Below, one piece after another: positions 30,594 to 31,117 of a stretch of 64,000 nucleotides of DNA. Positions within the stretch are counted from its first letter, which is position 1; each line of letters opens with the position of its first letter. A model generated the notes under the pieces. The model worked only from the letters and a program-made list of their open reading frames with translations. It did no database searches and was not told the origin of the DNA. The translations under genes were made by a program, and so were the position numbers. Location: assembly GCF_055900595.2 (NCBI RefSeq), contig NZ_CM148325.1; one strand, 5' to 3'.

Positions 30594-30683
30594 TTACTTC
30601 AGGTATTTCAGAACAGCATCAAGCAGTTGCAGTGCTGCAACAATGAGTTTGAGGATAAGAATGGCGATATCCACCAGGCTCAT
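30594..30683 (-). CDS. tisB: Type I toxin TisB (29 aa, SOS-induced membrane peptide)
   Basis: Reverse-complement reads ATG AGC CTG GTG GAT ATC GCC ATT CTT ATC CTC AAA CTC ATT GTT GCA GCA CTG CAA CTG CTT GAT GCT GTT CTG AAA TAC CTG AAG TAA = MSLVDIAILILKLIVAALQLLDAVLKYLK; not in ORF track (too short). Confidence 0.9.
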   Translation of the reverse strand: MSLVDIAILILKLIVAALQLLDAVLKYLK

Positions 30684-30916
30684 ACGCGTCTCCTGTGGTT
30701 CAGGAGCACTGCCAGCTGACGTACCTTTCCGCTGCCTGTTGCCAGCTGTTGTGCACGCGGTATCTCAAGGAGAAACGTTGTGCTGTTGACATAACACAGT
30801 GTGCTCTCGCGGGGTTAAGGCGCTGACGGCACCACCCGTTTCAGCCAGGACTTAGTGCGCCGGGTAACGATGCGGCCCCCGCATAACACATTGCGTACAG
30901 TGATATTATAGAAGTG

Positions 30917-30936
30917 TACTGTATAAATAAACAGTA
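30917..30936. promoter_or_regulatory. LexA box (SOS operator) in the tisAB/istR-2 control region
   Basis: tactgtataaataaacagta is a near-perfect LexA consensus (CTGT-N8-ACAG palindrome). Confidence 0.85.
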
Positions 30937-31042
30937 ATTTTTAGACAAAACGCAAACTGTGATCGATACTCAACTATGCACTAAATACGTCAAAATTCGT
31001 GCCGAAATTGCGCGTTCTGCGCGGAACACGTATACTTTCAGT

Positions 31043-31117
31043 GTTGACATAATACAGTGTGCTTTGCGGTTACCAGCCGCGGGCGGCTGACGAAACCTCG
31101 CTCCGGCGGGGTTTTTT
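31043..31117 (+). ncRNA. istR: IstR-1 small antisense RNA (75 nt) that represses tisB
   Basis: Begins gttgacataatacagtgtgct, whose first 21 nt are a near-copy (1 mismatch) of 30785-30805 (the tisAB mRNA target on the opposite strand); ends in terminator cgctccggcggggtttttt. Length 75 nt matches IstR-1. Confidence 0.75.

What the first reader, a model, noticed from the sequence alone, without database searches (positions are those of the whole stretch)
30594..31117. Complete tisB/IstR-1 SOS-inducible type I toxin-antitoxin locus with LexA box and duplicated 21-nt pairing segment
The 29-aa TisB ORF (minus strand, missed by the ORF track), a near-consensus LexA operator (30917-30936), and the divergently encoded 75-nt IstR-1 RNA are all identifiable. 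The 21-nt segment gttgacata(a/t)acagtgtgct occurs at 30785-30805 and 31043-31063 on the same strand, which is the basis of IstR-1 antisense pairing with the tisAB 5' UTR. TisB here starts MSLVD rather than MNLVD as I recall for K-12.
Basis: partly seen in the sequence, partly recalled or inferred. Interest (0 to 1): 0.4.

Follow-up and report, generated by a model that had tools for sequence, protein, structure and literature searches.

The report
Known E. coli tisB/istR toxin-antitoxin locus
This is the well-studied E. coli tisB/IstR-1 DNA-damage-inducible toxin-antitoxin locus, intact and ordinary, whose only unusual feature is a rare one-base deletion that breaks the reading frame of the upstream, reportedly untranslated tisA ORF.

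Summary
The window is E. coli chromosome. Between emrD/ysdE and ivbL-ilvBN it carries a complete tisAB/istR locus, 98% identical to K-12 MG1655. Present and intact are: the tisB ORF (30594-30683, minus strand; NCBIfam TisB equivalog), its AGGAGA Shine-Dalgarno, the tisAB -10 and terminator, a LexA box (30917-30936; the only match in 64 kb), and IstR-1/IstR-2 (Rfam istR, 147.7 bits against a threshold of 45).

The two 21-nt segments (30785-30805 and 31043-31063) are real and are identical to K-12. Because the two genes are transcribed divergently, this same-strand repeat gives an IstR-1:tisAB duplex of 20 Watson-Crick pairs plus one G·U.

MSLVD (N2S) is not unusual. It is the majority E. coli allele, and this has been published and tested (PMC11264685).

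The only non-standard feature is a 1-nt deletion just 3' of the IstR-1 target. It shifts tisA from 37 to 30 codons and occurs in 11 of 5426 complete genomes.

Verdict: already known.

The parts
30541..30898 (-). tisAB primary transcript (+1 near 30898, 3' end near 30541), about 358 nt here
   Evidence: Ends are inferred, not mapped here. The -10 TATAAT at 30905-30910 places +1 about 7 nt downstream. The same interval in K-12 is 360 nt, against the published 359-nt tisAB RNA (PMC2577331).
30547..30574 (-). tisAB intrinsic terminator hairpin (12-bp stem followed by a U-rich tail)
   Evidence: terminator scan; inverted repeat I1, 100% complementary.
30594..30683 (-). tisB CDS, 29 aa plus stop, Ser2 (N2S) allele
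   Evidence: NCBIfam NF011340 scores 69.9 bits (cutoff 53) and TIGR04459 scores 61.5 bits (cutoff 38). RefSeq annotates WP_000060506.1 at identical coordinates in a 100%-identical genome.
30689..30694 (-). tisB Shine-Dalgarno AGGAGA, sequestered in a local hairpin
   Evidence: for position; mean P(unpaired) of SD plus AUG is about 0.21 in the +1, +42 and +106 forms. PMC11264685 Table 1 reports this RBS as 100% conserved.
30700..30792 (-). tisA-position ORF, frameshifted to 30 aa (MSTAQRF...) instead of the 37-aa K-12 TisA
   Evidence: Re-inserting the missing A restores the K-12 frame MSTSTTFLLEIPRAQQLATGSGKVRQLAVLLNHR....
30783..30784 (.). Site of the 1-nt deletion relative to K-12 (K-12 TT on the + strand, one T here; AA to A in the mRNA at +115/+116)
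   Evidence: Present in 11 of 5426 complete genomes.
30784..30805 (-). IstR-1 target and single-stranded standby-site segment of the tisAB 5' UTR (+94 to +115)
   Evidence: It is identical to the 22-nt AGCACACTGTGTTATGTCAACA given in PMC2577331. Predicted accessibility rises from 0.33 in the +1 form to 0.55 in the +42 form.
30905..30910 (-). tisAB promoter -10 hexamer TATAAT
   Evidence: PMC11264685 Table 1 lists TATAAT as 99.8% conserved.
30917..30936 (.). LexA operator TACTGTATAAATAAACAGTA, lying between the tisAB -10 and the IstR-2 -35
   Evidence: unique in the window, 0 expected. Identical to K-12.
30942..30970 (+). IstR-2 promoter: -35 TAGACA (K-12 has TGGACA), 17-nt spacer, -10 GATACT
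   Evidence: PMC11264685 Table 1.
30978..31117 (+). IstR-2 RNA (140 nt)
   Evidence: Coordinates transferred from the K-12 annotation 3853118-3853257 through alignment A1. The Rfam istR model covers 30988-31117.
31008..31036 (+). IstR-1 promoter: -35 TTGCGC, 17-nt spacer, -10 TATACT
   Evidence: PMC11264685 Table 1.
31043..31117 (+). IstR-1 antitoxin RNA (75 nt from 31043). The transferred K-12 RefSeq annotation gives 73 nt, 31045-31117.
   Evidence: The 5' 21 nt pair with the tisAB leader.
31092..31117 (+). IstR terminator hairpin plus U6

Best explanation
This is a functional copy of the chromosomal type I toxin-antitoxin module tisB/istR-1 of E. coli.

Mechanism, as established in K-12 and transferred here by near-identity:
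1. LexA bound at 30917-30936 represses the leftward tisAB promoter.
2. DNA damage removes LexA, and an RNA of about 358 nt is made.
3. This primary (+1) RNA is translationally inert. Its 5' end pairs with the region around +94 to +106, and the tisB SD sits in a hairpin.
4. Removal of the first 41 nt frees a single-stranded standby site around +94 to +115. There 30S subunits with protein S1 load and then reach the tisB SD about 100 nt downstream.
5. The constitutively made 75-nt IstR-1, transcribed rightward from 31043, pairs its unstructured 5' 21 nt with that standby site. This blocks 30S loading and triggers RNase III cleavage to the inactive +106 RNA.
6. When tisAB mRNA outnumbers IstR-1, the 29-aa TisB peptide inserts in the inner membrane, dissipates the proton motive force, lowers ATP and promotes dormancy and persistence.

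Shown here: presence, integrity and identity of all sequence elements, the complementarity, and predicted folds consistent with the model.
Inferred from the literature: transcription, processing, standby loading, RNase III cleavage and toxicity.
For: - K-12 alignment is 98% identical, with every functional element identical.
- Rfam istR RF01400 scores 147.7 bits against a gathering score of 45, full length 1-130.
- NCBIfam TisB equivalogs score above their cutoffs.
- RefSeq annotates tisB at the same coordinates in 100%-identical genomes.
- The LexA box is unique in the window.
- The repeat is far beyond chance.
- The explicit duplex is 20 Watson-Crick pairs plus 1 G·U over IstR-1 nt 1-21.
- The IstR-1 fold leaves nt 1-12 unpaired and has a terminator.
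- The target lies at +94 to +114 while the SD is at +205, so direct RBS occlusion is impossible and the distance matches the published ~100-nt standby distance (PMC6690012).
- Partition-function folds show the target more accessible in the +42 form than in the +1 form (0.55 against 0.33), with the SD about 80% paired in all forms. Window and K-12 behave alike.
- Mechanism literature: PMC6690012, PMC4147584, PMC2577331, PMC2826370.
- N2S TisB has been shown to be toxic (PMC11264685).
Against: Nothing contradicts it. Caveats:
- No expression data exist for this strain.
- The RNA ends are transferred from K-12, not mapped. The IstR-1 5' end is 31043 (75 nt) or 31045 (73 nt, K-12 RefSeq annotation).
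- The 1-nt deletion at +115/+116 touches the 3' edge of the standby region and has not been tested.
- The IstR-2 -35 differs from K-12 (TAGACA against TGGACA).
- The ViennaRNA accessibility shift between +1 and +42 is modest.
Confidence: 0.96

Rival explanations
1. The locus is a decaying or inactive copy. On this reading, the 1-nt deletion next to the standby site, the altered IstR-2 -35 and the weakened IstR-1 stem are signs of pseudogenisation in this lineage.
For: The tisA frame is broken. About 20% of E. coli have lost or lack the whole locus, so it is dispensable (PMC11264685 reports 15% with no match). Two U-A pairs in IstR-1 stem 1 are U·G here.
Against: - The tisB ORF, SD, -10, LexA box, IstR-1 promoter, pairing segments and both terminators are intact and identical to K-12.
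- The stem changes are structure-preserving, and the fold is still -31.2 kcal/mol with z = -2.8.
- The deletion is shared by three sub-haplotypes that differ at 5-6 other sites yet keep every functional element. That pattern points to continued constraint.
- tisA has no experimental evidence of translation (PMC11264685).
Confidence: 0.03
2. The 21-nt repeat is a generic repeated element or a chance match, not a regulatory pairing site.
For: A REP element lies nearby at 30491-30531 (sub-threshold naRNA4 hit). Short direct repeats are common.
Against: The pattern occurs only twice in 64 kb, both times in this locus, with 0 expected. It coincides exactly with the experimentally defined IstR-1/tisAB antisense region (PMC2577331, PMC4147584).
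Confidence: 0.005
3. IstR-1 arose by a local duplication of a longer (~75 nt) piece of the tisAB leader, so the homology should extend beyond the 22-nt core.
For: A second short direct repeat exists, GCTCTCGCGGGGTT (30803-30816) against GCTCCGGCGGGGTT (31100-31113) (D3). duplexfold extends pairing over 70 nt at -78.8 kcal/mol, against shuffles at -56.4 ± 4.4.
Against: Local alignment of the flanks outside the core is not better than shuffled sequence: right flank score 16, reached by 15% of 2000 shuffles; left flank score 12, reached by 71%. duplexfold ignores intramolecular structure, and the 22-nt core alone accounts for much of its excess.
Confidence: 0.05

Closest known systems
tisB/istR-1 (tisAB-istR) locus of E. 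coli K-12 MG1655 (b4618/b4616)
   Same: Same genomic position (emrD-ysdE | tisB | istR | ivbL-ilvBN), same architecture, and 98% nucleotide identity. The pairing segments, LexA box, SD, -10 elements and terminators are identical.
   Different: - TisB has Ser2 instead of Asn2. Ser2 is the majority natural allele (PMC11264685).
- A 1-nt deletion frameshifts tisA (rare: 11 of 5426 genomes).
- A->T at 30807 could extend the duplex to 23 bp.
- The IstR-2 -35 is TAGACA rather than TGGACA.
- Two U-A pairs in IstR-1 stem 1 become U·G.
Other divergently encoded E. coli type I TA loci that use 5'-UTR antisense control (shoB/ohsC, zor/orz, dinQ/agrB)
   Same: A small hydrophobic toxin, a long structured 5' UTR that needs processing, and a divergent sRNA complementary to the UTR far from the RBS. 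dinQ is also LexA-regulated (PMC4147584, PMC3567139).
   Different: The toxin and sRNA sequences are unrelated. The window's locus scores as TisB and istR specifically.

Membership tests
TisB toxin (NCBIfam NF011340 / TIGR04459) | 29-aa hydrophobic peptide matching the curated equivalog HMM above its cutoff | tested here: met
   69.9 bits (cutoff 53) and 61.5 bits (cutoff 38), full length 1-29 of 29.
IstR sRNA (Rfam RF01400) | Sequence and structure match to the covariance model above the gathering score | tested here: met
   147.7 bits against 45, E = 8.9e-32, model positions 1-130 of 130, not truncated.
tisB/istR-1 type I TA system | Antitoxin RNA encoded divergently, with about 21 nt of complementarity to the tisAB 5' UTR upstream of the tisB RBS | tested here: met
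   IstR-1 nt 1-21 pair with mRNA +94 to +114 (20 Watson-Crick pairs plus 1 G·U). The SD is at +205.
tisB/istR-1 type I TA system | LexA operator at the tisAB promoter (SOS control) | tested here: met
   CTG-N10-CAG box with 2 mismatches to consensus, unique in the window, 6 nt upstream of the -10. LexA binding itself was not tested.
tisB/istR-1 type I TA system | tisB RBS structurally sequestered, with the standby site exposed only after 5' processing (+42) | tested here: inconclusive
   the predicted folds agree qualitatively (SD about 80% paired; target accessibility 0.33 rising to 0.55). This is a thermodynamic prediction only. Processing was not observed.
tisB/istR-1 type I TA system | TisB toxicity, and its neutralisation by IstR-1 through RNase III cleavage | not testable with these tools
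   Established for K-12 (PMC4147584, PMC6690012). Toxicity of the N2S allele has been shown (PMC11264685).
tisAB operon as annotated in K-12 | 37-aa tisA ORF overlapping the tisB start (AUGA) | tested here: not met
   a 1-nt deletion gives a 30-aa ORF in another frame, ending at 30700. tisA is not considered a functional part of the TA system, since there is no evidence it is translated (PMC11264685).

The most novel reading that the evidence does not exclude
The rare natural 1-nt deletion at +115/+116 is found in 11 of 5426 complete genomes and in three sub-haplotypes. It may be more than neutral. It removes the TisA amino-acid sequence while keeping an upstream ORF whose stop (UGA, 30700-30702) still falls in the loop of the SD-sequestering hairpin, and it shortens the 3' edge of the standby region by one base. 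It could therefore serve as a natural test of why the tisA frame is >99% conserved although apparently untranslated. It might also retune TisB expression or persister frequency in this lineage.
Probability: 0.08. Interest if true: 0.3.

Novelty: already known. Interest (0 to 1): 0.06.

Why it matters
tisB/istR-1 is the textbook example of antisense control through a ribosome standby site and of SOS-linked persister formation. Finding it intact in another E. coli genome adds nothing new.

The one point of modest value concerns tisA. Its ORF is reported as 99.6% conserved despite no evidence of translation, and this lineage carries a viable natural frameshift of it. That argues the TisA peptide sequence itself is dispensable. 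The published conservation may instead reflect RNA-level constraint, although that was not tested here.

Tried and rejected
1. Extended homology between the tisAB leader and IstR-1 beyond the 22-nt core (a duplication-origin idea). Flank alignments are no better than shuffles, so this was rejected.

2. The 70-nt, -78.8 kcal/mol duplexfold interaction. It was discounted because duplexfold ignores intramolecular structure and the core alone accounts for much of its excess over shuffles.

3. MSLVD as an unusual allele. Rejected: the 60 nt around codon 2 match exactly in 3289 of 4358 genomes that carry the locus, and it is published as the 85% consensus.

4. The tisA frameshift as an assembly error. 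Rejected: it is present in 11 independent assemblies from different laboratories, hosts and countries, on three sub-haplotypes. It is also a TT->T change, not a long homopolymer.

5. Sub-threshold Rfam hits. naRNA4 at 30493-30525 is simply the REP element, and P6 at 31371-31428 is the ivbL attenuator terminator. Both are below gathering scores.

6. A cross-genus scan of genome contigs for covariation between IstR-1 and its target. This was deliberately not run. The pairing segments are identical to K-12, where pairing is experimentally established, so the costly scan could not change the verdict.

7. One search failed on a wrong file path and was repeated.

Full report
**Observation**

The region 30300-31400 was read on both strands and all ORFs of at least 20 aa were listed. 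The 29-aa ORF at 30594-30683 on the minus strand reads MSLVDIAILILKLIVAALQLLDAVLKYLK.

The 20-nt palindrome-like TACTGTATAAATAAACAGTA at 30917-30936 is the only match in the 64-kb window to the LexA consensus TACTGTATATATATACAGTA at up to 3 mismatches. It has 2 mismatches, and no match occurred in 100 shuffles.

The two 21-nt segments sit exactly at 30785-30805 (GTTGACATAACACAGTGTGCT) and 31043-31063 (GTTGACATAATACAGTGTGCT), both on the + strand. They are the only two matches in the window, with 0 expected. The repeat finder extends them by one base to 22 nt, with 21/22 identical.

It is actually C/T at position 11.

**Identity of the locus**

A 661-nt query (30540-31200) matches 4360 of 5426 complete E. 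coli genomes, always on the chromosome. Eight genomes are 100% identical, several of them at the same coordinates, so the window is the start of an E. coli chromosome record. RefSeq annotates tisB at 30594-30683 in such a genome, flanked by emrD and ysdE on one side and ivbL-ilvB-ilvN on the other. K-12 MG1655 has the same arrangement, with IstR-1 and IstR-2 annotated.

Pairwise alignment to K-12 is 98% identical. The following are identical: the tisB ORF apart from codon 2, the SD AGGAGA (30689-30694), the tisAB -10 TATAAT (30905-30910), the 20-nt LexA box, the IstR-1 promoter (TTGCGC at 31008-31013 and TATACT at 31031-31036), both pairing segments, and both terminators.

Rfam's istR model matches 30988-31117 full length at 147.7 bits, against a gathering score of 45. 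The peptide matches both NCBIfam TisB equivalogs above their cutoffs. Transferring K-12 coordinates through the alignment puts IstR-2 at 30978-31117 and IstR-1 at 31045-31117.

**Mechanism check**

tisAB is transcribed leftward and istR rightward. A direct repeat on one DNA strand therefore yields complementary RNAs. IstR-1 nt 1-21 pair with the mRNA segment AGCACACUGUGUUAUGUCAAC through 20 Watson-Crick pairs and one U·G.

With +1 placed at about 30898, the target is +94 to +114, the tisB SD is at +205 and the AUG is at +216. That +1 lies 7 nt after the -10. It gives a 360-nt K-12 interval, against the published 359-nt RNA in PMC2577331. IstR-1 therefore cannot occlude the RBS directly. The ~100-nt distance matches the published standby-site mechanism, and the published +106 RNase III product falls inside the duplex (PMC6690012).

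IstR-1 folds with nt 1-12 unpaired, one internal stem-loop and a terminator hairpin plus U6 (-31.2 kcal/mol, z = -2.8).

Partition-function folding of the +1, +42 and +106 forms shows three things. The 5' end of the +1 RNA pairs with the target region. Target accessibility rises from 0.33 to 0.55 after removal of 41 nt. The SD stays about 80% paired in a local hairpin. Window and K-12 behave alike. This agrees qualitatively with the published model but is only a prediction.

The functional steps come from the literature on K-12 and are transferred by sequence identity (PMC6690012, PMC4147584, PMC2577331, PMC2826370). These steps are LexA repression, +42 processing, S1-dependent 30S standby loading, IstR-1 competition, RNase III cleavage, and TisB depolarising the membrane and promoting persisters.

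**What differs from K-12**

1. *TisB N2S.* The 60 nt around codon 2 are matched exactly in 3289 of 4358 genomes that carry the locus. A published survey of 2212 genomes found Ser2 in 85% of loci and showed that the N2S peptide is toxic, and somewhat more toxic at low induction (PMC11264685). K-12 is the minority.

2. *A 1-nt deletion.* K-12 has TT on the + strand and the window has a single T, between 30783 and 30784. In the mRNA this is AA to A at +115/+116, immediately 3' of the 22-nt antisense segment. It shifts tisA from the 37-aa K-12 frame to a 30-aa frame (MSTAQRFSLRYRVHNSWQQAAERYVSWQCS). Re-inserting the A restores the K-12 TisA sequence.
   - A 40-nt query spanning the deletion matches only 11 of 5426 genomes. 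This is consistent with the published 99.6% conservation of the 37-aa ORF.
   - The 11 genomes come from different laboratories, hosts and countries.
   - The genomes examined represent three sub-haplotypes that differ at 5-6 other positions while keeping all functional elements. The deletion is therefore real and not brand new.
   - The new frame stops at UGA 30700-30702, in the loop of the SD-sequestering hairpin. The variant thus shows that the TisA amino-acid sequence is dispensable. It does not exclude a role for translation through the region.

3. *Minor changes.*
   - 30807 is T where K-12 has A. This would add U·G and U-A pairs and extend the potential duplex to 23 bp.
   - The IstR-2 -35 is TAGACA instead of TGGACA.
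   - Two A->G changes turn U-A into U·G in IstR-1 stem 1, which preserves the structure.

**Population context**

About 20% of complete E. coli genomes lack the locus. In strain EC69 the interval between the ysdE-side terminator and the ivbL upstream region holds about 110 nt of unrelated sequence instead. This too is published: 82% of genomes have a full match, 3% an interrupted one and 15% none.

**Rejected ideas**

Homology between the tisAB leader and IstR-1 outside the 22-nt core is not significant. The long duplexfold interaction is discounted because the method ignores intramolecular structure. The sub-threshold Rfam hits are a REP element and the ivbL attenuator terminator.

**Verdict**

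The locus is the already known tisB/istR-1 system in an ordinary, intact form. The only noteworthy detail is the rare tisA frameshift, which is of minor interest.

Noticed in passing
window 30783/30784 (tisA-position ORF 30700-30792, minus strand): A 1-nt deletion relative to K-12 frameshifts the 37-aa tisA ORF to 30 aa. Only 11 of 5426 complete E. coli genomes carry it, on three sub-haplotypes. The new stop codon lies in the loop of the hairpin that sequesters the tisB SD.
   Followed up: yes
window 30807 and 31088/31093: SNP 30807 (T here, A in K-12) would extend the potential IstR-1:tisAB duplex from 21 to 23 bp. Two A->G changes in IstR-1 stem 1 convert U-A pairs to U·G, which preserves the structure.
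   Followed up: partly
window 30942-30947: The IstR-2 promoter -35 is TAGACA, where MG1655 has TGGACA. Published conservation of the MG1655 form is 94.5%.
   Followed up: partly
L003 (E. coli EC69) 671-916, compared with window 30488-31120: About 20% of complete E. coli genomes lack tis/istR entirely. The empty site holds about 110 nt of unrelated sequence between the ysdE-side terminator and the ivbL upstream region. Published as 15% with no match in PMC11264685.
   Followed up: partly
L005 (strain 4012) about 690-870, compared with window 30491-30531: In a common haplotype, the REP element downstream of tisB is replaced by a longer GC-rich palindromic repeat, making the interval about 140 nt longer (sequence includes CCCTCTCCCCAAAGGGGCGAGGGG...GGGGAGAGGG). 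The element type was not identified.
   Followed up: no
window 30491-30531: A single REP element lies between ysdE and the tisAB terminator. It gives a sub-threshold Rfam naRNA4 hit (26.9 bits against 59.5).
   Followed up: partly
window 30396-30470 (+): The 24-aa small protein gene ysdE is annotated in RefSeq between emrD and tisB. A terminator-like hairpin lies at 30462-30479.
   Followed up: no
window 30854-30873 and 30614-30629 (minus strand): The 20-nt uxaA-antisense and 16-nt dinD-antisense segments of tisAB RNA described by Weel-Sneve et al. 2008 (PMC2577331) are both conserved exactly. Their partner genes are not in this window.
   Followed up: partly
window 31247-31345 and 31371-31428: The ivbL leader peptide (MTTSMLNAKLLPTAPSAAVVVVRVVVVVGNAP) and its attenuator terminator lie here. 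The terminator produces a spurious sub-threshold Rfam P6 hit.
   Followed up: no
hits H112 and H116: Some E. coli genomes carry IS200C or ISKox3 insertions within the emrD-ilvB interval near tis/istR. These probably correspond to the 'interrupted' 3% in the published survey.
   Followed up: no
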